Shown here: piece after piece, positions 18,265 to 30,876 of the stretch | Numbering within the stretch: position 1 is the stretch's first letter | How the letters are laid out: each line of letters begins with the position of its first letter | Program-made: the position numbers and the translations under genes | The notes under the pieces: model-generated | The model's database searches: none | The model's input: the letters and a program-made list of their open reading frames with translations, nothing else | Told to the model about the DNA's origin: nothing | Assembly: GCA_010356995.1 (NCBI GenBank) | Contig: ML996688.1 | Coordinates: 744,001-808,000 of the forward strand | Direction: 5' to 3' | From: Trichodelitschia bisporula | Taxonomy: Eukaryota | DNA: 64,000 bases

Positions 18265-19370
18265 CTAACGACTGAAATTCGCCGGCGGGGCCGTGGGCGG
18301 ACCTTCGGGTGTAACGTAGGCCTACCAGTAGAAAAAGGGCTCGTTAGCAAAACTTCGTGGCATAAAATTGCGAACCCGGGCAAGTGCAGCTCACCTTCGT
18401 CATCCCGCCGTCGACCACGAAATCCGTCCCGTTGACGAAGCTGCTCTCATCGCTGGCCAGGAAGACGACCGCGTGCGCTTGCTCAATGGCTTCGCCGAAG
18501 CGCCCCGTTGGGAAATGGATTTCGCGGCGGTGGCGCTTGGCTGCGTCATCGCCGAGCCAGTCCTGGAGGAGGGGAGTGCTACGAGCGTCAGGCGGTTACA
18601 ACGAGATAAGGTACGAGATAGAACTCACTTCAGTGGTGCCGGGCACAGCGCATTGAACCGGAAGCCTTCGCGCGCATGCACAATCGCCAGCTCGCGCGTC
18701 ATAGCAAGCACAGCGCCCTTACTCGCCGTATACGCGAGTTGGGGCGTCGCGCTGCCCACCAGGGCCACAACACTCGCAACATTAATAATCGACCCGTTCT
18801 TCTTCCCGTGCTTGCGCAGACTGAGAACCGCATGCTTGCTCCCGTACCACACGCCCTTGACGTTGATCGCCATGGTCAGGTCCCAGATGCGCTCCGGGGT
18901 GTTGACCGCGTCGGCGTCGTCGGCGTGCATGATACCGGCGTTGTTGAAGATCACGTCCAGGCCGCCCCAGGAGTCGAGACTGGCTACGGCGGCGGCTACG
19001 CTGGATTCGTCGGTCACGTCGCAGATGACCGTTTCGATGCGCGGGGGGTTCGGCACCACGGAGAGGAGCTTAGATCTAGCACGCTCGAGCGCGGGCCCGG
19101 AGATGTCGGCCATGAGGACGAGAGCACCTTCACGGGCGAAGAGGATGGAGGTCTCGAGACCGATGCCGCTATGGAGGTTAGTCGATTCTCTGCAGCGTTC
19201 AGGGCAGAAAACAGATGGTAGGATATGCACTCAATGCATGAGACTGAATACTCAAAAGGAAGATATTCGTAATCCGAAATCCTCATATTGAATCACTTCA
19301 CCTACCCAGCAGCTCCGGTGATAAGGGCATTCTTGCCTGCCAGACGGCCCTTTGGTGCTTCAGTCGCCAT
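18265..19370 (-). CDS. Short-chain dehydrogenase/reductase (classical SDR, Rv2857c/SCO1611-like)
   Basis: Exons 19370-19306, 19168-18629, 18578-18395, 18321-18265. Motifs TGAAGGIG, NNAG, YTASK and C-terminal VVDGGMTKAYVTP. Confidence 0.93.
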
Positions 19371-20200
19371 ACTGAGTTACGTTTCGAAGTCGAGAAGTAA
19401 AACTGAGGTACAAAACCACCGAGCACTGGGAGCTACAAGGCGTATAAGAACCCGGGGCGACGTTGTGAGGTGGTGGCCGGATATGACTAATTTCTAGCCG
19501 CCAGCCTATGGCGGGGCAAGATGGAGTATCACGCGTCCGTTTCCGGAAAGAGTTGTAAATTCCAGAAAGGCGTAAGGACCCTGGACGAAGGACGAAGCAA
19601 GAATCACACAAAAGTTTGAACTGCTAGTTGGCATGAAGCAGCCGCGGACGGAGTCGAGCTTTCATATAGTGAGGTCCGCTATCGCTTGTCGATAAGAAAC
19701 CGCTATGACGGGGCACCGTACCCCTCCAATGCCTCACCCTTCAGGCATCCATAGCGGAGCAGTACGACGTCACCGCTGCCCAGCTCGATGTCCCTGATGT
19801 ACCGATGAGCCGACCATAGCTGGAGGAGAGAGAAAGAGAGCAGTACAGCAGTTACATGCTTTGGTCAATCTCGCATATTTTGATACGCTATCTCGCATCT
19901 AGCCTATCGCCAGCCTTGCCTTTCTTATTCCTTGTCGCCAATCCACTGCGCGCCGGGAGCTGATTATCGCGCACGCCGTAGCGGTCCAGATACGGACAAG
20001 CATGGCCCCAAGCTTTGGTAGGGTACCATTCCAGGGTTTCTCTGCCGCATCGCGTCCCGCCCGGTTTATCACCGCGCTTCCACTACGTAAACAGATGGTC
20101 TTGTGCCCCGTGTGTGTTCCCTTTTTCCATCTCACCTCGAATCCTTTTGCACTTATCCCCTACTCCCTTTACAAGCAGTTCTTCAATCCAAACCGGCGCA
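19371..20200. promoter_or_regulatory. Bidirectional promoter with clustered HGATAR (AreA/NIT2-type) sites
   Basis: HGATAR on either strand at 19679, 19690, 19888, 19904, 19964 and 20066, between two divergent ATGs. Confidence 0.5.
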
Positions 20201-21884
20201 ATGGCTCATGCAGGCGAAGAAGGAGAAGTCAAAGTCGAGGATCTCCCGCGCATCCTCGAAAATGACATCAGCGTCAAAGTCGCCGGAGTCGACGTAGACG
20301 GCGTGCTGCGCGGCAAGCTCATGGCCAAGAAGAAGTTTCTCTCCATCGCAAAGGAGGGCTTCGGCTTCTGCTCTGTCATATTCGGCTGGGATATGCATGA
20401 TCAGACCTACTTCCGCGAGCTCAAAATCAGCAACAAGGACAATGGTTATCACGACATTCTTGCCATTCCCGACCTGAAGTCCTTCCGGCGCATCCCTTGG
20501 GAGAACAATGTTCCCTTCTTCCTTGTCAGTTTCTACGACCCGGATACCCAAGAGTCGCTCAGCGCATGTCCGCGCTCGCTGCTGCAGCGTGCTGTCGCGA
20601 AGCTGGATGAAAGGGGCTACCGCGCTATGGCTGGAGGTGAGCTGCATCGTCCGGATGCGAACGAAAGCTGGTGCACAGCGACCCCCGAGGCTGGCATAGC
20701 TAATTGCTAGTCATCCAGCGGAATTCGAGTTCTACCACTTTCGCCCTCCGGCAACGAACAATGGCGGCGAACGCAACTCCTCCGCCACCGCAGTCTTCCT
20801 CAAAGACAACCCACCCCACGCTTTGCCGCACATGACTGAGGGAATGACGGGATACAGCCTGACGAGGACGGTGCATAATCAAGACTACTTCTACGGCGTT
20901 TTCGATGCATGCGAGAAGTTTCGTTGTGGAATTGAAGGATGGCACACGGAGAGCGGACCGGGTGTCTTCGAAGCGGTTAGTTATGGTCCGCTTTGGAGGG
21001 CGAGACCTAATTCCAGCAGGCGCTGCAATTCAATGAGATCACTGAAATGGCCGACAGGGCGGCGCTCTTCAAGTATGCGAGTTCCATAACGTCTTCGCAT
21101 CGCTAACACCAATGCAGGCTCACCGTAAAATCGTTAGCCAGCAGGTCCGGCCTCACGCCCTGCTTTATGGCCAAGCCCCGGGAAGGTCTGCCGGGTAACT
21201 CGGGGCACATGCACATCTCCATTGTGGACAAAGAGGGCAAGAACCTCTTTTACCGCGAAGAAGAAGACAAGGACACCAAGTGGGGTGACCTGCGATATCT
21301 GTCTGACTTGGGACGGCAGTTCCTTGCCGGCATTTTGGACGGATTACCCGACATCATGCCCATTGTGGCGCCTACCATAAACTCGTACAAGCGCCTCGTT
21401 GAGAACTTCTGGGCGCCGGTTACGGTTTCGTGGGGCTTGGAGCATCGCGCGGCCTCAATACGCCTCATTACACCCCCCTCTGCAAGCCCAAAGGCTACAC
21501 GACTCGAGGTTCGGGTACCAGGAGCAGATGCAAATGCTCACATGGTGCTCGCCGCAATCCTAGCATTGGGTTGGCGAGGTGTGGAGAAGAAGCTTGAGAT
21601 TTCGGTGCCCCCGCTCGGCAAAGGAGAGGATGTCGGCGGCGAGTCGGACCAGGGCATTCGGTTGGCAAAGTCGCTGAAGGAGGCGAACGTGCGGTTCATG
21701 GCCAAGGACAGTGTTGCGCGTGAGGTCTTTGGTGACGAATTTGTAGAGCATTTCGGCGGAACGAGGGAGCATGAGGTGCGGCTGTGGGACGAGGCTGTGA
21801 CGGATTGGTAAGAATACACGCATTTTTTGGTCCTGTTGCTAACCCGCGAATAGGGAGGTCAAGCGATATATAGAGATGGTGTAG
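20201..21884 (+). CDS. Glutamine synthetase-like gamma-glutamyl-amine ligase (type I, GlnA4/PuuA-like)
   Basis: Exons 20201-20636, 20719-20975, 21020-21072, 21118-21807, 21854-21884. Motifs DVDGVLRGK, AEFEF, HTESGPGVFE, FMAKP...GNSGHMHIS, NSYKRLVENFWAP and RLEVRVPGAD. Confidence 0.93.
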
Positions 21885-22395: not shown

Positions 22396-23318
22396 ATGAC
22401 TTCCCACCCGCTGCACTCAGCTGCTTGTATGTTGATTTCCCGAGGTCGAAGTGCGGGGTAGTTTTGCGCATACTGACGATGCTATCAAGGCTGCTCTGTC
22501 CCCGCAGTCGTGACGAAGGGCTATGAGCCCAAGGGGACGTATACAACTGTCGATGGGCTGAAGACCTGTACGTTATTCTCAACTCCCGTCTCATCTGCCT
22601 CACAATCTAACCCCTACAGACGTCACTGGTCCCGCCTCCGCCAAACACGCCATCCTGGTCGTCTACGACGTCTTCGGCTACTTCCCGCAGACATTGCAAG
22701 GCGCAGATATCCTGGCGCACGGCGATGCTGAGCGCCCATACCGCGTCTACATCCCGGACTTCTTCGATGGGCCGGCTGCGGATATCACCTGGTACCCGCC
22801 GGACACGAAGGAGAAGGGCGAAAAGCTGGGTAACTTTTTCAACACGACTGCGGCGCCGCCTAGGACTGTTCCCCGCGTGCCGAAGGTTGTGGAGGAGCTG
22901 TCCAAGGCGAATCCTGACATCCAGAGCTGGGGTGTTGTGGGATACTGCTGGGGCGGAAAGATCGTCAATCTCACTTCGCAGTCCGGCACTCCCTTCAAGG
23001 CCGCCGCCATCTGCCACCCAGCCATGGTTGACCCAGCCGATGCGCCTAAGGTGACGATTCCGATCGCCGTTCTGCCGTCCATGGATGAGGACAAGAAAAC
23101 GATTGGCGAGTACGAGGCGGCTTTGAAGGTTAAGCACATCGTTAAGTGGTTCCCGGACCAGATCCACGGATGGATGGCCGCGCGGTGAGTACTCCGATCC
23201 ACTGAAACGAGCAGGATGTTAATCCAGGGTCAGTTCGAACCTCGAAGACCCCAAGGTTGAGGCCGAGTACAAGCGCGGCTATAAAATCCTGCTGGACTTC
23301 TTCCATGAGAATCTGTAG
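22396..23318 (+). CDS. Dienelactone hydrolase family protein
   Basis: N-terminal HSAACCSVP, YDVFG, PDFF, nucleophile motif GYCWGG, HPAM and catalytic HGWM. Three GT-AG introns. Confidence 0.9.
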
Positions 23319-23931
23319 GTTGTTTTTCTTTTATCTGGCGACAAAGCACGCACGGTAGGCTTGACCTCATTATGCGTTGTTTCCTTGTAGATCCTCTGGT
23401 TGAGCGAGGCTGATGGTACGTAGGGGCAGCGGTGCTTCGAAGATCTGAGGGACGGTCGCTTCCTGTCGGTTCTCTTACAAGTGATATGAAGGGAAGATCT
23501 CTAAGACCGTAGTGAAGCAATAAATTAAGCTGCCTTGACATCTTGATGTTCCATGCTGTCGTGTTGTGCACCGTCCGCTTAATCGCAGCTAGCCCAACGA
23601 GTGCGAATGAACACCATGAACGGAATCTCGTAATATCAACGCCAGCATGCTATCGCAAGAAACGCTCAAAAGAACTAGCAAAAAGTCTCCTGGCGCGCTT
23701 ATAAACTGCCAAGCCAATAAGCCAGCACTTCACTGCTCTCATGCCCAAGGCTGTACATAAATCACATGCTTCAATCTCTTTAGCCAATCATGCTCCCCCC
23801 AAATAATCCTCCGCCACTAACCCTAATCCGGAATCTGCGATGTCATCTCTCCAAAGCTTCAAACCCGCAATCTCCAAAAAAAACCATACCCAGCATCGGA
23901 CTCGCGCAATTGAACCCATTACACCTCTAAA

Positions 23932-24777
23932 ATGTCGACCCCGTTCGGATCCCTCTGTCGCACCATTGCCGCGCAGTCTACATACTTCACAACTTCACTC
24001 CGTACCTGCCAGCCTCACTTTGCGACAACACACAATTTCACCCGCAGCTTCACCACTACCGCTCCCCGCTCCTTCGCCCCCTCTACCTCCTACTCTGTGC
24101 ACATCCGCCGCGCACCCCGCACACACGACCGCGGCCCCGCATCTTCGGAAGACACGCAAACCGACTTCGGCAAGCTGAACGTGCTGGGCGACGTCCCAGT
24201 CCCGGCGACAAGCATCGACGCGTGCCTGGAGGATGGGTTTGATTTGAGCAATGGGGCACGGGTGGCGGGTGCTGGGGTTTTGCTCGTCGGCGGAGAGGCG
24301 TTTCGGTGGAGACCGTGGGTGGAAGAGAGTGGAGGGAGGAGAGGACTGCTGAATGAGAAGGGCGCGTGGGAGGTTGATCGGCGGGCTTGGGGGGTGCTTG
24401 GGGGGCTTTGGCCGAAGCCGGGTATGTACCTGTCTATCTGCTTTCCTGTGAAGGGTTGGGGGTGGTTACCCGGGCGTGGGGGCCTGAGGACGGATGGAAC
24501 GGCACCGCGGCGGAAGGAGATGCGACGCATGCTTTTCACGCCCAGAGAACACAGCTAACGACCAACCCTAGATCTGCTCATTATCGGCACCGGCCCGACT
24601 ATCGTACCCATCTCCCCGGCGACGCGCAAGCATATCAATGGGCTGGGAATCAGGGTTGAGGTGCAGGACACGCGGAATGCAGCCAGCCAGTTTAACCTTC
24701 TCGCGACGGAGCGTGGCGTAGAACAGGTTGCGGCGGCGCTGATTCCTATCGGATGGACGGAGGCAGTCAAGAAGTGA
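23932..24777 (+). CDS. NDUFAF3: Complex I assembly factor NDUFAF3 (Mth938-like)
   Basis: Mitochondrial presequence-like N-terminus. WPKP|DLLIIGTG spans intron 24422-24570, followed by DTRNAASQFNLLATERG. Confidence 0.9.
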
Positions 24778-25347: not shown

Positions 25348-26568
25348 ATGACGCGGGCCAGCATCCTCCTTCTTTATTTTGCAGCGATAACGCAGGCGGT
25401 TTCGTTTTCGTCTTCGTCTTCGAGCTCGAGCGGTAACTCCTCCTCAGGCACCGGTCGGGAGGGAATGCTGACGCGGTGAACAGATGCCTCATGCCCTGCC
25501 ACTGTCCCCGTGACAGTGACCCGCTCGACCGGAGACTCGAGTACGAGCTCTGACTCGGGCACCTTCACGGGGAGTGACACGGCCACTACTACGAGTGCAT
25601 CGGACAGCGCGTCGGAATCGGGATCGAGTTCGACATCGGATACGGTATCCGTATCCGACACGACGACGGCCTCTGATACGGCAACCAACTCCGATACGGC
25701 TTCATCGACAGACTCGGCAACGTCCGCTTCCGATACAGCAAGCGGCTCGAGCACGGTTTCCGGGACAGACTCGGCGACGTCCGCTTCCGATACGGCAACC
25801 GGCTCTGACACGATTTCGGCGACGGACTCGGTAACGTCCGCTTCCGGTACGACAAGCGGCTCTGACATGGCTTCGACGACAGACTCGGCAACGTCCGCTT
25901 CCGATACCGCATCTGCTTCGGGCTCAGGCACATCATCGGAATCCAGCTCATCTGCCTCCGACACGTCTTCAGATACTGCGACCTCCGCCCCCACCACCTT
26001 CTCCAGCTCCACCGTCATGACCTCCGTGACGACGTACAACCCCACAGCGACAGGCGATGGGCCTATCCCCGCCGGCAGCGGTGGTGGTGGTGGCGGTGGC
26101 GGCGGCGGCTGCAACGCCGCTCTGACCAGCCCGACGTGCCCAAGCGACAACAACACGACCGGCGTGTATCAGAACTAGTATTACCGGACGCTGTGCGATG
26201 GCGTACCCATTGGCGTGGACGACGTGATTGACGTGCGCAACGAGCCCACGACATACACTCTGCAGGACTGTGTGGCTGCCTGTGTCATGTACAATCTGGC
26301 GCCGTTCCCAAGTCCGGGCTACTGCTCTCTTACATGGTTGGAGGCGACGGAGACGGAGGTTAACGTGCCGTTTATGCGCCGCTGGCTTTATGGCAGGTAT
26401 ACGGTTGCGACGTATGAGGTGGCGAGTGCTCAGAATTCTTATGCGGTTTTGGTCAAGAATGCTACGGCGGAGGCGGAGCTTTGTTCGGGTGGAGGTGGGG
26501 GTGGGGAGACGCCGCCGACGAAGCGGTCGGCGAAATTTTGGTATGGGGATAGGGCCGGATTGGAGTAA
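25348..26568 (+). CDS. Secreted Ser/Thr-rich repeat protein with a C-terminal Cys-rich (PAN/apple-like) domain; in-frame TAG at 26176-26178
   Basis: Signal peptide MTRASILLLYFAAITQA and phase-1 intron 25433-25483. ORFs 25510-26178 and 26215-26568 are in the same frame. CPSDN...LC...TLQDCVAACVMYN...C pattern. Confidence 0.7.
25655..25920 (+). repeat. 57-bp (19-aa) coding tandem repeat, about 4.5 copies
   Basis: GACTCGG..ACGTCCGCTTCCG recurs at 25711, 25768, 25825 and 25882 (TDSATSASDTA units). Confidence 0.9.
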
Positions 26569-27597: not shown

Positions 27598-29512
27598 ATG
27601 GTGCTGGGCCACAGACGCCACTCTGCAGCCAGCATGCTCAAAGGTACAAAGCCTCACCCTCGCTTCCCCGCACCCCCCCACCTTGAGGCCTCCCTACAGG
27701 GCATTGGGCTGACATATTCGCACCACAGGAGGTAGCCGGTCGGCGTCGGTGGACGACAGCAGAGACTCAAATGGTGAGGACGAGACTGTCGTCGACCCTG
27801 AGCAGGGAAATGGTGCGTCTTTCTCGTCTGCCAGCCGACTGAAGAGTCGCGGCACTACACCTAGCTGTGCGCCCGGCTAACACCATGAAGTCCTTATGCA
27901 CATCATTTCCCAGCTGCGACCGGGCGCCGACCTCAGCCGTGTGACCCTTCCGACTTTCATCCTTGAGCCGCGCTCTATGCTCGAGCGGATAACCAAGTAC
28001 GTGATCGTGGTGTGAGGGAAGGGAGAGGGACTAACACTCGCAGCTTCATGGCCCACCCCGAAACCCTGCTTCCCATGCCTACGATTGAAGACCCTGTCCA
28101 GCGCTTCGTGTCGGTCGTCAAATTCTATTTGAGTGGATGGCACATCAAGCCGCCGTACGTAGGCCCCAACTTTCGCCCCAGTGTTCGACTGTAGCTCACA
28201 GTTTACAGAGGCGTCAAGAAACCCCTGAATCCGATCCTCGGAGAGGTCTTTACCTGCTACTGGGACTACCCCGACGGCACGCGCGGATACTACATCGCCG
28301 AACAAACATCTCACCACCCTCCTAAGTCGAGCTACTTCTTCATGGCACCCGAGCACCACATTCGCATAGATGGTACACTGAAGCCTAGGAGTCGGTTTCT
28401 CGGAAACTCAGCGGCTAGCTTGATGGAAGGCATTGCCGTAATGCACTTCCTCAACCGAAACGAGAGATAGTACGTGCGCTTCGTATTTTATGGATCCTTG
28501 GTCTAACTGGTGCAGCTTCGTCACGCAGCCGAACATGTACGCCCGCGGCATTCTGTTCGGAAAAATGAAGTACGAGCTCGGAGATCACAGCTTCGTGCGT
28601 TGTCCCGAGACAGGGTTGGTTGCCGATATCGAGTTTAAGACCAAGGGGTACTTTGGCGGGACGTATAACGCTATCGGCGGGTTCATCAAGGACTCCAAGA
28701 CGGACAAGAACTTGTTCGAACTCTCTGGCATGTGGAATGGGGAAATGTATATCAAGGACTTGATAGTACGGATGACCATTCCGTCTCACGACTTCGCTGA
28801 CTGTTGCAGACCAACAAGAAGGAACTGCTTTTCGACGCTACACGTGCAAAGGAGACGCCTCCCAAGTCCCGGCCTCTGGAAGAGCAAGACGAGCGTGAAT
28901 CGCGGCGCCTCTGGGCCGATGTAATAGCTGCGATTAAGAACAAAGACCATAACGGGGCGACGGAGCACAAGTCCAAAATCGAAGAGCGCCAGCGCGAGGA
29001 AGCGGCGAAGCGTGCCGATGACGGCGTCGACTGGCGTCCTAGACTTTTCCGGGAAATCCAGGGCGTGCCAGGAACAGAGGGGGAAGAGGACCTTGACTGG
29101 ATTCTTAGCGCGAAGATGTAGGTTCCCGCAACTTCTGAGACGCTTAGTGCTAATGTCTATCAGCGATGGGAAGACGCCTGAAGAAAGAACGAAGCAGATT
29201 CTGAGTATTTACGCCATTCTCCCGGGCCAGGATCCTCCTCAACGGTTTGTCATCCCTTCTCGTCGAGAGAGCCTCGCCAACTCGCCGGTCCTCAGGGCGA
29301 AGCAACCGCATGGGGGACAGCCGCCCCAGGAGCAGCCTATCACCGAGGGCACGCAGCATCCTGACGCCGTGAGCGAAGACATGGCCAAGCTCAATCTGGC
29401 GCAGCCAGCGCGGGGACATGCCGTCGACGACGACAGCATGGCATCGCACCCCGTGCGGCGGCACGATTCGCAGACAAACGATATTGACGAATTTCACGAT
29501 GCAGAGCCTTGA
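27598..29512 (+). CDS. OSH7: Oxysterol-binding protein, OSH6/OSH7 type
   Basis: [59 protein letters not shown] and IEERQR motifs over multiple short introns. Confidence 0.92.
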
Positions 29513-29874: not shown

Positions 29875-30876
29875 TTATGATCCTTTAACTGCCATGATGC
29901 CCAGAATCACAGCCTCCATCTCCTTGATCGTGCTGTTCGCCGCCATTGCCCCGTTTGGCTGACCTTTCCCGCCTTTGCCCTTCCGCCCCCCGGCATCACC
30001 CCCGCTATCCAGCTTGTAGATTTTGCGTACGCGCGGGATCTCGGCGGTCAAGGCCAGGGTGGCGTCGTTGAATGGGACGCGCTGGCCCTGAACGTGGGTT
30101 GCGAGGTGGGATGAGGGGTCCGGGATGGGATCGGTGGCGGGCGAGTTGAGGACTTTGATCGCGAGGAGGGTGCGCGTGGTATCGGATATGCCGAAGCGGC
30201 GGAAGGACTCGGCGATCTGGTCACGCGAGGATCAGCTTATGCTGGGGATCGTGCTTTATGCGCTGGGACACGGGGAACAAGTTCACGGGGACGGGAAAGA
30301 GATGTATGCCTAAAGCGAACCCGACTGGTGCACTTTGCAGCAATAGTCGAGATTAGAAAGGCAGCTTTTGATCTCCGCGACTGTGAAATGAGGTATGTCA
30401 ACGGATGTTTGGCAACCCTTGCGTAAGCCGCGGGATATATGTGCAGAGCACATTGTGTGTCCGAAGACGATGAAGCAAAGCGAAGTACGTGAAGGAAAGA
30501 ACGACGCAACCGCACTCCAGCGCCGTAGCACTTACATTGTTGTTCGGGCTGAGCGAGAAGACGATCTCAGAGTGCACATTGCGACTCTTCAGCCGGCCAT
30601 GCAGCAGGTCGTTGACCGCGCGGAACACAGCCGCCAGGACATGATTCACGGAGATTATCTACTGGGCGGCGATCAGAGACGCTTCCTCCTGCGGAAGGAA
30701 GAGAGAAGGCGTGGTGATGATACCGTTGAGGCGTCTAGGAACGCGTACTCGAAAGCGCTGTTGCCTTCCAGCAGCTGCTGACGCAGAAACGGCGCGTTGG
30801 CGACGTCGGCGAAGAGCGAGATGTGCACCGGGTGCGAGGCCAAATGTGGGAGCTGGAGCGTCGTACCGTCGGCCAT
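29875..30876 (-). CDS. CGI121: EKC/KEOPS complex subunit Cgi121
   Basis: [46 protein letters not shown] and ending MAVKGS. Intron 2 spans 30217-30535. Confidence 0.92.
30300..30438 (-). ncRNA. Intronic box H/ACA snoRNA, snR5-like (LSU rRNA pseudouridine guide)
   Basis: Hairpin 1 closed by CCGCGGCT/AGTCGCGG. H box AGATCA at 30374-30369. Hairpin 2 with TGCCT/AGGCA and CTCGACT/AGTCGGG stems. ACA at 30305-30303. The 3' pocket is complementary to conserved LSU rRNA AAAGCGAA-UG-AUUAGA. Confidence 0.82.

What the first reader, a model, noticed from the sequence alone, without database searches (positions are those of the whole stretch)
18265..21884. Head-to-head SDR and GlnA4-like ligase: a fungal counterpart of the bacterial amine gamma-glutamylation operon
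Seen: two divergent genes 830 bp apart. The GS-like protein has YKRLVENFWAP where true type I glutamine synthetases have YKRLVPGYEAP, so the Glu327 flap is replaced by Trp. The SDR carries ATPQLAYTASKGAVLAMTRELA...NALCP...TPLL and ends AYVTP. Established (from recall): Glu327-to-aromatic substitution marks gamma-glutamyl-amine ligases (PuuA/PauA, GlnA3/GlnA4). Actinobacterial glnA4 (SCO1613, Rv2860c) lies in an operon with an aldehyde dehydrogenase and an SDR of this type (SCO1611, Rv2857c) implicated in ethanolamine utilisation. Inference: this fungus keeps a co-regulated two-gene module for glutamylating and then oxidising a small amine such as ethanolamine, possibly of bacterial ancestry and now intron-containing. 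I know of no biochemical characterisation of this pathway in fungi.
Basis: partly seen in the sequence, partly recalled or inferred. Interest (0 to 1): 0.8.

Follow-up and report, generated by a model that had tools for sequence, protein, structure and literature searches.

The report
Fungal glutamyl-tagging amine breakdown gene pair
Many filamentous fungi keep two back-to-back genes, a glutamine-synthetase look-alike and a small dehydrogenase, that most likely tag an amino alcohol such as ethanolamine with glutamate and then oxidise it to use its nitrogen, a route so far studied in bacteria.

Summary
Observation confirmed: a 488-aa GS-like gene and a 281-aa SDR lie head to head, 830 bp apart; all seven introns are spliced out in public contigs. 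The pairing is conserved: 25 of 28 non-redundant fungal loci with 3 kb upstream carry the SDR, 23 head to head, out to Tuber. The ligase keeps all ten metal, ATP and glutamate residues but has Trp at the Glu327 flap. It is not GlnA4: it belongs to a pan-fungal clade nested among Myxococcota-group and Bacteroidota-like ligases, whose operons mostly use an iron alcohol dehydrogenase (AU test against a GlnA4 grouping, p=2e-11). The SDR nests among eight bacterial SDRs that all sit beside GlnA4-type ligases. An unlinked aldehyde dehydrogenase of the same genome groups with glutamylation-operon enzymes. The shared gap is GATAAG-rich (3.7-fold). Best reading: a nitrogen-regulated gamma-glutamylation and oxidation route for an amino alcohol, probably ethanolamine, whose two genes have different bacterial kin and were paired within fungi. 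No activity is shown and no dedicated hydrolase was found. The scan noted this pair before in four other genomes.

The parts
18265..19370 (-). SDR gene, 4 exons (19370-19306, 19168-18629, 18578-18395, 18321-18265), 281 aa; TGAAGGIG, Asp at the end of strand 2 (NAD preference, from general SDR knowledge), NNAG, Ser and YTASK catalytic motif; proposed gamma-glutamyl-amino-alcohol dehydrogenase
   Evidence: Gene model; introns; Pfam adh_short_C2; best NCBIfam PRK06057 but under its cut-off; tree and alignment. The NCBI model KAF2404355.1 lacks the first 40 aa.
19371..20200 (.). 830-bp divergent gap, likely shared promoter; six HGATAR sites (19679, 19690, 19888, 19904, 19964, 20066) and one GCGGGG (CreA-type, consensus recalled) at 19511
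   Evidence: more HGATAR than any of 77 tiles of 830 bp in the window. Contigs of the two genes come to 19678 and 19741 in run X1; contigs cannot show starts, weak hint only.
20201..21884 (+). GS-like gene, 5 exons, 488 aa; proposed gamma-glutamyl-amine ligase. Kept: E147, E149, E223, E230, H279, H281, R341, R359, R364, E379, R381. Changed: Trp347 for Glu327, Pro274 for Asn264
   Evidence: under the cut-off of GlnA (224 vs 429 bits), PuuA (181 vs 650) and type III (201 vs 470) models; trees.
22481..23314 (+). Dienelactone-hydrolase-family gene just downstream (GYCWGG nucleophile motif); ends approximate; neighbour of uncertain relevance
   Evidence: Pfam PF01738; introns; translation; downstream of the ligase in 10 of 40 loci with 1.5 kb downstream.

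Best explanation
The two genes are the first two steps of a nitrogen-regulated gamma-glutamylation route for a small amino alcohol, most likely ethanolamine. Step 1 (chemistry inferred from family knowledge and kept residues): the ligase makes gamma-glutamyl phosphate from glutamate and ATP and transfers it to the amine, masking the amino group. Step 2 (inferred from the operons of the SDR's nearest relatives): the NAD-type SDR oxidises the free hydroxyl to an aldehyde, doing the job that an iron alcohol dehydrogenase does in the operons of the ligase's nearest bacterial relatives. Step 3 (inferred): the unlinked aldehyde dehydrogenase at G000:C20:~527.6-529.1 kb gives gamma-glutamyl-glycine. 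Step 4 (open): a general enzyme such as gamma-glutamyl transpeptidase frees glycine and glutamate. A GATA factor of the AreA/NIT2 type probably drives both genes from the shared gap. Shown: gene structure, residues, conserved pairing, kinships, motif enrichment. Not shown: any activity, the substrate, co-expression. The two genes have different bacterial kin, so the pair was probably put together inside fungi, at or before the split of Pezizomycetes. Ethanolamine itself as main substrate: about 0.45 overall.
For: Pairing in 25 of 28 (3 kb upstream) and 30 of 36 (2 kb) non-redundant loci, against 10 of 40 for the DLH neighbour and at most 6 loci for any other neighbour. The 7 best plasmid hits of the SDR (45-55%) all lie beside a GS-like ligase; 4 weaker hits checked (39-42%) do not. 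Fungal SDRs nest inside 8 ligase-linked SDRs (97/90) with Allomeiothermus as sister (99/96). Ethanolamine permeases (TIGR00908) over cut-off beside SDR relatives in L083 and L144, a cut-off partial one in L143, and beside a sister-clade ligase in L129. Sister-clade ligases are followed by an iron alcohol dehydrogenase in 9 loci, often with aldehyde dehydrogenase and C26 hydrolase. Own-genome aldehyde dehydrogenase L150 groups (SH-aLRT 100) with 8 operon enzymes including the Eto-type operon and Allomeiothermus; 9 of its 10 best plasmid hits lie beside a ligase hit. GATAAG 1.93/kb in 35 gaps against 0.52/kb in non-coding flanks. GlnA4 glutamylates ethanolamine in vitro and SCO1611 is its predicted dehydrogenase (PMC6529630, section 13 and passages).
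Against: The ligase is outside the GlnA4/Eto clade, so no characterised enzyme is its close relative; an aromatic flap is shared by ligases for polyamines, isopropylamine and aromatic amines and does not fix the substrate. Only 1 of the 14 Myxococcota-group regions fetched shows an ethanolamine permease, and the 4 Bacteroidota-like loci have no dehydrogenase hit or obvious one beside the ligase. The SDR role of SCO1611 is itself only predicted in PMC6529630. No N-formylglutamate amidohydrolase was found and the only C26 hit reads like GMP synthase. No Eat-type permease. The aldehyde dehydrogenase is unlinked and has only 2 HGATAR in 1 kb upstream; its type was near the pair in none of 73 loci. 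The SDR is missing upstream in 3 of 28 loci and is on another contig in Aulographum. The genome has two copper amine oxidase genes that could deaminate amines directly. In M. tuberculosis GS4 showed only minor activity with amines and GS3 preferred ethanolamine (PMC13740247, passages), so clade does not predict substrate.
Confidence: 0.62

Rival explanations
1. Same ligase-then-dehydrogenase chemistry, but not for feeding on a simple amino alcohol: the pair makes or removes another gamma-glutamyl compound (from a polyamine breakdown product, an amino sugar fragment or a toxic amine), or a developmental signal as proposed for FluG.
For: The ligase has no characterised close relative; amine-pocket loops are unresolved in the model (pLDDT under 50 at 59-69, 182-194, 337-361); no dedicated hydrolase found; related ligases sit beside polyamine transporters, P450s or aminotransferases; FluG is a fungal GS-like protein with a proposed glutamylated product (PMC6478659, abstract and passages).
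Against: The only substrate-naming genes beside the SDR's nearest kin and one sister ligase are ethanolamine permeases; GATA enrichment fits nitrogen scavenging; the protein has no amidohydrolase domain (488 aa, PF00120 only).
Confidence: 0.2
2. The genes share a nitrogen-starvation promoter but act in different pathways; head-to-head order persists only because a shared promoter is hard to split.
For: Head-to-head pairs are commonly kept in fungi (general knowledge); the DLH neighbour is also partly kept; the ligase is older than the known pairing and no SDR link was tested outside Pezizomycotina; pair broken in some lineages.
Against: Of the 12 other places in this genome that match the SDR query (one search lists 13 matches, 2 of them this gene), the partner is exactly the type whose bacterial kin always flank GS-like ligases, and the genome also holds the matching aldehyde dehydrogenase type. 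Chance would not pick that SDR.
Confidence: 0.1
3. Evolutionary rival: the pair is the remnant of a single glnA4-type bacterial operon taken up by a fungal ancestor.
For: SDR and aldehyde dehydrogenase both have the Allomeiothermus operon among their nearest relatives; bacterial sampling is thin (plasmids, one phylum, metagenome hits), so an operon with both gene types could exist unseen.
Against: Ligase groups with Myxococcota-group and Bacteroidota-like proteins (100/99), a GlnA4 grouping is rejected; none of 17 bacterial regions around such ligases holds an SDR hit; in 151 genomes of that phylum the one strong SDR match lies beside a GlnA4-type ligase.
Confidence: 0.1
4. The GS-like protein is a second true glutamine synthetase for ammonium.
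For: All metal, ATP and glutamate residues are kept; databases name it glutamine synthetase.
Against: Flap Glu replaced by Trp; far under the GlnA cut-off; a GSII gene exists; the probable orthologue MoGLN3 is dispensable and its loss did not lower glutamine (PMC8229676, passages; orthology not checked by sequence here).
Confidence: 0.03

Closest known systems
Streptomyces coelicolor ethanolamine cluster SCO1610-SCO1615 (GlnA4 = SCO1613, SDR SCO1611, ALDH SCO1612, hydrolase SCO1615; PMC6529630)
   Same: GS-like ligase with aromatic flap plus an SDR of the PRK06057 neighbourhood; fungal SDR 45-48% identical to the SDRs of same-layout actinobacterial operons and in one clade with them.
   Different: Ligase only 28-29% identical and in another clade; flap Trp, not Phe; two genes, divergent and intron-containing, with no linked ALDH, hydrolase or permease. 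SCO1613/SCO1611 themselves were not fetched; same-layout operons stood in.
Proteobacterial Eto operon (Chromohalobacter Csal_0679 = PDB 5DM3; Phaeobacter MED193; PMC10132767)
   Same: Ligase, alcohol dehydrogenase, ALDH logic; 5DM3 is the second-best PDB sequence hit; the fungal unlinked ALDH groups with the ALDH of an operon of this layout.
   Different: Ligase 29% identical and in the GlnA4 clade; uses an iron alcohol dehydrogenase, an FGase-type hydrolase and a TRAP transporter; FGase not found in this genome.
Uncharacterised Myxococcota-group and Bacteroidota-like GS-like ligases (loci L071-L080, L090-L114)
   Same: Nearest relatives of the fungal ligase, 42-46% identical, same FGWD motif and WAP flap; operons with iron alcohol dehydrogenase, ALDH, C26 hydrolase, once an ethanolamine permease.
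   Different: No SDR; no biochemistry found.
Thermomicrobium roseum and Allomeiothermus silvanus plasmid operons (L083, L084)
   Same: Nearest relatives of the SDR (53-55%); ligase-SDR-ethanolamine permease in one, ligase-SDR-ALDH in the other, whose ALDH is also the closest to the fungal unlinked ALDH (47%).
   Different: Their ligases are GlnA4-type, 30-32% identical to the fungal one.
Fungal 'GLN3' (MoGLN3 = MGG_02538, AniGLN3 XP_664258, UmGLN3; PMC8229676), earlier labelled MoFLUG (PMC3424150)
   Same: Probably this very gene family: third GS-like gene of filamentous fungi, cytoplasmic, dispensable for growth and glutamine supply.
   Different: Described as a glutamine synthetase or FluG orthologue with no substrate and no mention, in the passages read, of the SDR. 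Orthology rests on recall of locus numbering and on malate synthase beside the pair in L034, not on a sequence comparison.
Aspergillus FluG; E. coli PuuA; IpuC
   Same: GS fold with aromatic flap residue, gamma-glutamyl ligase chemistry shown or proposed.
   Different: FluG has an N-terminal amidohydrolase (absent here; FluG sequence not compared); PuuA 25% and IpuC 35% identical, in other clades.

Membership tests
Type I glutamine synthetase (GlnA) | Glu327 flap | tested here: not met
   Trp347
Type I glutamine synthetase (GlnA) | Score over TIGR00653 cut-off | tested here: not met
   224 vs 429 bits
Type I glutamine synthetase (GlnA) | Asp50 latch and Tyr179 | tested here: inconclusive
   Both loops align poorly with E. 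coli GlnA and have low pLDDT
GS-like gamma-glutamyl-amine ligases (broad) | Metal, ATP and glutamate ligands kept | tested here: met
   E129, E131, E212, E220, H269, H271, R321, R339, R344, E357, R359 equivalents all present
GS-like gamma-glutamyl-amine ligases (broad) | Non-acidic, aromatic flap residue | tested here: met
   Trp in 196 of 196 listed relatives; W296 in PauA7, F331 in GlnA4, W726 in FluG (PMC6529630, PMC6478659 passages)
GS-like gamma-glutamyl-amine ligases (broad) | ATP-dependent gamma-glutamyl amide formation | not testable with these tools
   Needs enzyme assay
GlnA4 / ethanolamine gamma-glutamylase clade | Monophyly with GlnA4-type and Eto ligases | tested here: not met
   AU p=2.4e-11, log-likelihood 83.6 lower (LG+G4, stand-in sequences)
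GlnA4 / ethanolamine gamma-glutamylase clade | Linked alcohol dehydrogenase of SCO1611 type | tested here: met
GlnA4 / ethanolamine gamma-glutamylase clade | Linked ALDH, hydrolase and permease | tested here: not met
   ALDH present but on contig C20; no FGase, no dedicated C26, no Eat
PuuA (NF045547) | Score over cut-off; clade | tested here: not met
   181 vs 650 bits; 25% identity
FluG | N-terminal amidohydrolase fused to the ligase | tested here: not met
   488 aa, PF00120 only; FluG ligase domain itself not compared
PRK06057 SDR (family that holds the glnA4-operon SDRs) | Score over cut-off 404 | tested here: not met
   Best family, but 268 bits for the close relative P0124; Streptomyces operon SDR 507, Thermomicrobium 356
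PRK06057 SDR (family that holds the glnA4-operon SDRs) | Clade and signature motifs (Q-x-AYTASKG, H-x-P-x-GRF, AYVTP tail) | tested here: met
   Tree and alignment
AreA/NIT2-regulated nitrogen catabolic genes | Clustered HGATAR/GATAA sites in the promoter | tested here: met
   which GATA factor binds is not shown
AreA/NIT2-regulated nitrogen catabolic genes | Repression by ammonium, dependence on AreA | not testable with these tools
   No condition-resolved expression data

The most novel reading that the evidence does not exclude
Filamentous ascomycetes run a complete, unrecognised gamma-glutamylation pathway for ethanolamine (the head group of a main membrane lipid) that was rebuilt from parts of different bacterial origin: a ligase as old as the fungi, from a branch whose operons use an iron alcohol dehydrogenase, later joined on one AreA-controlled promoter by an SDR from the other (GlnA4-type) branch, with an unlinked operon-type aldehyde dehydrogenase. 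It would be convergent re-clustering of a bacterial operon's logic in a eukaryote, kept since the split of Pezizomycetes, and would give the orphan 'GLN3/FluG orthologue' gene its function.
Probability: 0.35. Interest if true: 0.75.

Novelty: new variant of a known kind. Interest (0 to 1): 0.6.

Why it matters
The gene is filed as 'glutamine synthetase' in hundreds of fungal genomes and has been treated as a third GS or a FluG orthologue; its probable deletion mutant had no phenotype under the conditions tried. The conserved partner, the matching aldehyde dehydrogenase and the GATA-rich gap turn it into a short, testable pathway. If true, it adds a B12-independent route by which moulds, lichens and mycorrhizal fungi recover nitrogen from phospholipid head groups or other amino alcohols, and it is a clear case of genes of different bacterial ancestry being clustered by shared function. 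The chemistry itself is known from bacteria, which caps the score.

Tried and rejected
The genome-contig scan with fungal patterns returned 1 locus, so the bacterial survey is limited to plasmids, 151 genomes of one phylum and 6 metagenome loci. SCO1613, SCO1611, Rv2860c, Rv2857c, GlnA3 and FluG sequences were not obtained; operons of the same layout stood in (the Streptomyces stand-in matches 5DM3 at 8e-117, the fungal protein at 2e-41). The mixture-model tree returned nothing; trees use LG+G4. AlphaFold model and Foldseek confirm the GS fold but rank true GS and ligases alike and leave the amine loops unresolved: no substrate information. TGTTGAA looked like a second motif but lies close to the start codons in the orientation of 5' leader context: dropped. 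CreA-type sites only weakly enriched (1.3 to 1.9-fold). L064/L068/L077 were first suspected to be basidiomycete; L077 is nearest to Tuber, so the pairing is not shown outside Pezizomycotina. The downstream MSC7-like ALDH (label recalled) seen in 5 loci does not group with operon ALDHs: rejected as the partner. DLH as the hydrolase: not excluded, unsupported. No RNA holder on record was listed; the two runs laid are contigs of one sample and cannot rank or co-regulate genes. Accession adjacency was checked mostly on pairs picked because they shared a contig length, so it is confirmation, not a frequency. Literature: 9 searches found no description of this pair or of gamma-glutamylation of amino alcohols in fungi; the library holds only open-licence papers, main text only, and supplementary expression tables were not searched.
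Full report
1. The observation. The two genes are as described. Splicing at GT-AG sites with branch points gives a 488-aa GS-like protein (exons 20201-20636, 20719-20975, 21020-21072, 21118-21807, 21854-21884) and a 281-aa SDR on the other strand (19370-19306, 19168-18629, 18578-18395, 18321-18265), with 830 bp between the start codons. The GS-like model is identical to database protein P0001, which NCBI lists for Trichodelitschia bisporula next to the SDR (KAF2404356.1 and KAF2404355.1). All seven introns are skipped in the contigs of the two runs laid (one sample, RNA status guessed by the tool). The NCBI SDR model lacks the first 40 residues.

2. The ligase. Against E. coli GlnA the protein keeps the equivalents of E129, E131, E212, E220, H269, H271, R321, R339, R344, E357 and R359, and has Trp347 at the Glu327 flap. 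The D50 and Y179 loops do not align well enough to call. The flap is YKRLVEN[FY]WAP in 196 of the 196 proteins listed by two searches. It scores far under the cut-offs for GlnA, PuuA and type III models. The genome has a separate GSII gene. Loss of the acidic flap with kept metal and glutamate ligands marks gamma-glutamyl-amine ligases (PMC6529630 and PMC6478659, passages read). So the broad assignment is sound; activity is not shown.

3. It is not GlnA4. Named representatives from the profile-free HMMER search include Funneliformis, two chytrids, two Zoopagomycota and two yeasts (10 of 150 looked up, 7 clusters named). In a 93-row tree these and the Pezizomycotina proteins form one clade inside a group of Bacteroidota-like and Myxococcota-group proteins, away from the GlnA4-type and Eto-type ligases. 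A 31-row careful tree repeats this (fungi 100/100; fungi plus those bacteria 100/99; GlnA4/Eto group 100/100), and holding fungi with the GlnA4/Eto group costs 83.6 log-likelihood units, p-AU 2.4e-11. Identity is 43-46% to the sister bacteria and 28-32% to the GlnA4/Eto group. Limits: LG+G4 only; operons of the same layout stood in for SCO1613; no FluG, GlnA3 or protist rows; the taxon labels of metagenome loci are my reading of their gene content. The ligase is thus old in fungi, and the direction or date of any transfer is not shown.

4. What the ligase's bacterial kin do. Around these ligases an iron alcohol dehydrogenase follows directly in L079, L080, L129-L133, L136 and L141, often with an aldehyde dehydrogenase and a C26 hydrolase; none of the 17 regions examined around Myxococcota-group ligases has an SDR hit. 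L129 has an ethanolamine permease over the TIGR00908 cut-off directly upstream; it is the only one among the 14 regions fetched. The four Bacteroidota-like loci lack the dehydrogenases; one was confirmed to carry a gamma-glutamyl cyclotransferase.

5. The SDR. Its seven best plasmid hits (45-55%) all lie beside a GS-like ligase; four weaker hits that I checked (39-42%) do not. In the tree the fungal SDRs nest within eight such SDRs (97/90), with Allomeiothermus as sister (99/96) and Thermomicrobium next. All of their ligases that were placed in a tree are GlnA4-type; the three not placed are 32-34% to the Rhizobium reference like the others. Ethanolamine permeases lie in the Thermomicrobium and Arthrobacter StoSoilB13 operons (over cut-off) and partly in Embleya; the Streptomyces viridifaciens and Allomeiothermus permeases are of another family. 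In 151 genomes of the Myxococcota group one strong SDR match was found, again beside a GlnA4-type ligase (at most 16 candidates scored per genome). In S. coelicolor GlnA4 makes gamma-glutamyl-ethanolamide in vitro, and SCO1611 is predicted, not shown, to oxidise it (PMC6529630, section 13 and passages).

6. The pairing. The metagenome scan kept the best 80 of 558 confirmed stretches, 79 loci, of which 73 are fungal and 66 non-redundant. Of 28 with at least 3 kb upstream of the ligase, 25 have the SDR and 23 are head to head; of 36 with 2 kb, 30 and 28. The downstream DLH gene is kept in 10 of 40, and no other neighbour in more than 6 loci. Nearest named proteins place paired loci in Dothideomycetes, Sordariomycetes, Leotiomycetes, Eurotiomycetes and Lecanoromycetes and, for L077, in Tuber at 89-90%. 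Consecutive accessions or locus tags confirm adjacency in Lindgomyces, Pseudovirgaria, Dendryphion, Paraphaeosphaeria, Cirrosporium, Emmonsiellopsis, Blastomyces, Histoplasma, Hypomontagnella and Biscogniauxia; Pleurostoma is three apart and Aulographum is on different contigs (mostly picked by shared contig, so not a frequency). The pairing was not tested outside Pezizomycotina.

7. The shared gap. In 35 gaps GATAAG was the top hexamer, in 32 against 10.7 expected from shuffles. Against non-coding flanks of the same loci GATAAG is 3.7 times and GATAA 2.1 times denser (the loci are related, so the p-values are too small). The window's gap has six HGATAR sites, more than any of 77 tiles. Such sites are the known targets of AreA/NIT2 (recalled), though other GATA factors bind similar words. 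This points to use of a poor nitrogen source.

8. Missing partners. A search with an operon aldehyde dehydrogenase gave 26 matches; six loci were placed in a tree. One, L150 on contig C20, groups with eight operon enzymes at SH-aLRT 100, including the Eto-type operon, and is closest to the Allomeiothermus enzyme (47%), from the operon that also holds the SDR's sister. Nine of its ten best plasmid hits lie within about 2 kb of a ligase hit (the tenth not checked). Its upstream kilobase has only two HGATAR sites. No FGase was found and the one C26 match reads like GMP synthase; two gamma-glutamyl transpeptidase genes are present. No Eat-type permease. Two copper amine oxidases offer a parallel route, which could hide a deletion phenotype.

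9. How it most likely works. Ligase: glutamate + ATP + amino alcohol to gamma-glutamyl amide. SDR: hydroxyl to aldehyde with NAD. C20 dehydrogenase: aldehyde to acid, gamma-glutamyl-glycine if the amine is ethanolamine. A general gamma-glutamyl-cleaving enzyme then frees the amino acid. Three independent genes of this genome each have, as nearest bacterial relatives, members of operons with this logic, and two of them are held on one GATA-rich gap across the Pezizomycotina. Because ligase and SDR come from different operon types, the pair looks assembled in fungi, the SDR taking the place of the iron enzyme. I put the amino-alcohol pathway at 0.62 and ethanolamine as main substrate at about 0.45. 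Rivals: other substrate or signalling role 0.2; shared promoter only 0.1; second GS 0.03; and, on origin, a single-operon remnant 0.1.

10. Against what is known. It works like the GlnA4 and Eto pathways (PMC6529630; PMC10132767, passages) but is a member of neither by clade or by gene set. The gene is probably the 'GLN3' of PMC8229676 (section 15 and passages), whose deletion left growth, infection and glutamine supply intact, and which PMC3424150 (one passage) lists as a FluG orthologue; I did not confirm that orthology by sequence. PMC3829961 (passages) states that filamentous fungi have only GSII proteins. PMC13740247 (passages) warns that clade does not fix substrate among mycobacterial GS proteins. 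Nine literature searches found no account of this pair or pathway in fungi; closed-access papers and supplementary tables were not covered. The scan's own notes hold the same pair from four other genomes and a Bacteroidota operon of the sister branch; these are unchecked notes, read after my trees and synteny counts, and the last one prompted the permease check.

11. Verdict. Real, conserved and coherent; a new variant of a known bacterial pathway, uncharacterised in fungi as far as these searches reach, with a corrected ancestry and a named third enzyme. Interest 0.6.

Noticed in passing
window 19370-19169: The NCBI model of the SDR (KAF2404355.1, 241 aa) starts at Met41 and misses exon 1 with the glycine-rich cofactor motif; contigs support the 137-bp first intron.
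   Followed up: yes
L150 1094-~2620 (G000:C20:~527.6-529.1 kb): Unlinked aldehyde dehydrogenase of the type found in bacterial gamma-glutamylation operons; best candidate for step 3.
   Followed up: partly
window 22481-23314; P0051, P0099: DLH gene follows the ligase in 10 of 40 loci, also in two where the SDR is not seen upstream (L042, L054); two lichen gene models carry both PF00120 and PF01738, probably mis-joined neighbours.
   Followed up: partly
L034 10952-12607; L064 4896-6167; L058 1293-2789 and 4 more loci: In different classes the pair lies beside malate synthase, a PrpD-family dehydratase or a citrate-synthase-family gene: an old block of C2/C3 metabolism genes, perhaps relevant to where the carbon goes.
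   Followed up: no
L074 6356-11483 (similar in L076, L078): Bacteroidota-like loci place the sister ligase beside a true GS, a gamma-glutamyl cyclotransferase (PF06094), an unassigned 345-aa protein and a HAD hydrolase: a different use of the same ligase branch, and a hint that a cyclotransferase can be the releasing enzyme.
   Followed up: no
L018, L049: In two loci the SDR is still next to the ligase but flipped to the same strand; both keep GATAA sites upstream of the ligase.
   Followed up: partly
G000 whole genome: The PF00120 search found only this gene and the GSII gene: no FluG-like ligase was seen, though the search is a lower bound.
   Followed up: no
P0248, P0252: Trichomonascus and Ramicandelaber orthologues have Tyr and Phe at the flap instead of Trp.
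   Followed up: no
window 23914-24777, 25480-26568, 27877-29512, 29875-30231: Further neighbours: a DUF498 gene, a Ser/Thr-rich low-complexity secreted-looking ORF, an oxysterol-binding protein and CGI-121; none recurs near the pair in other loci.
   Followed up: partly
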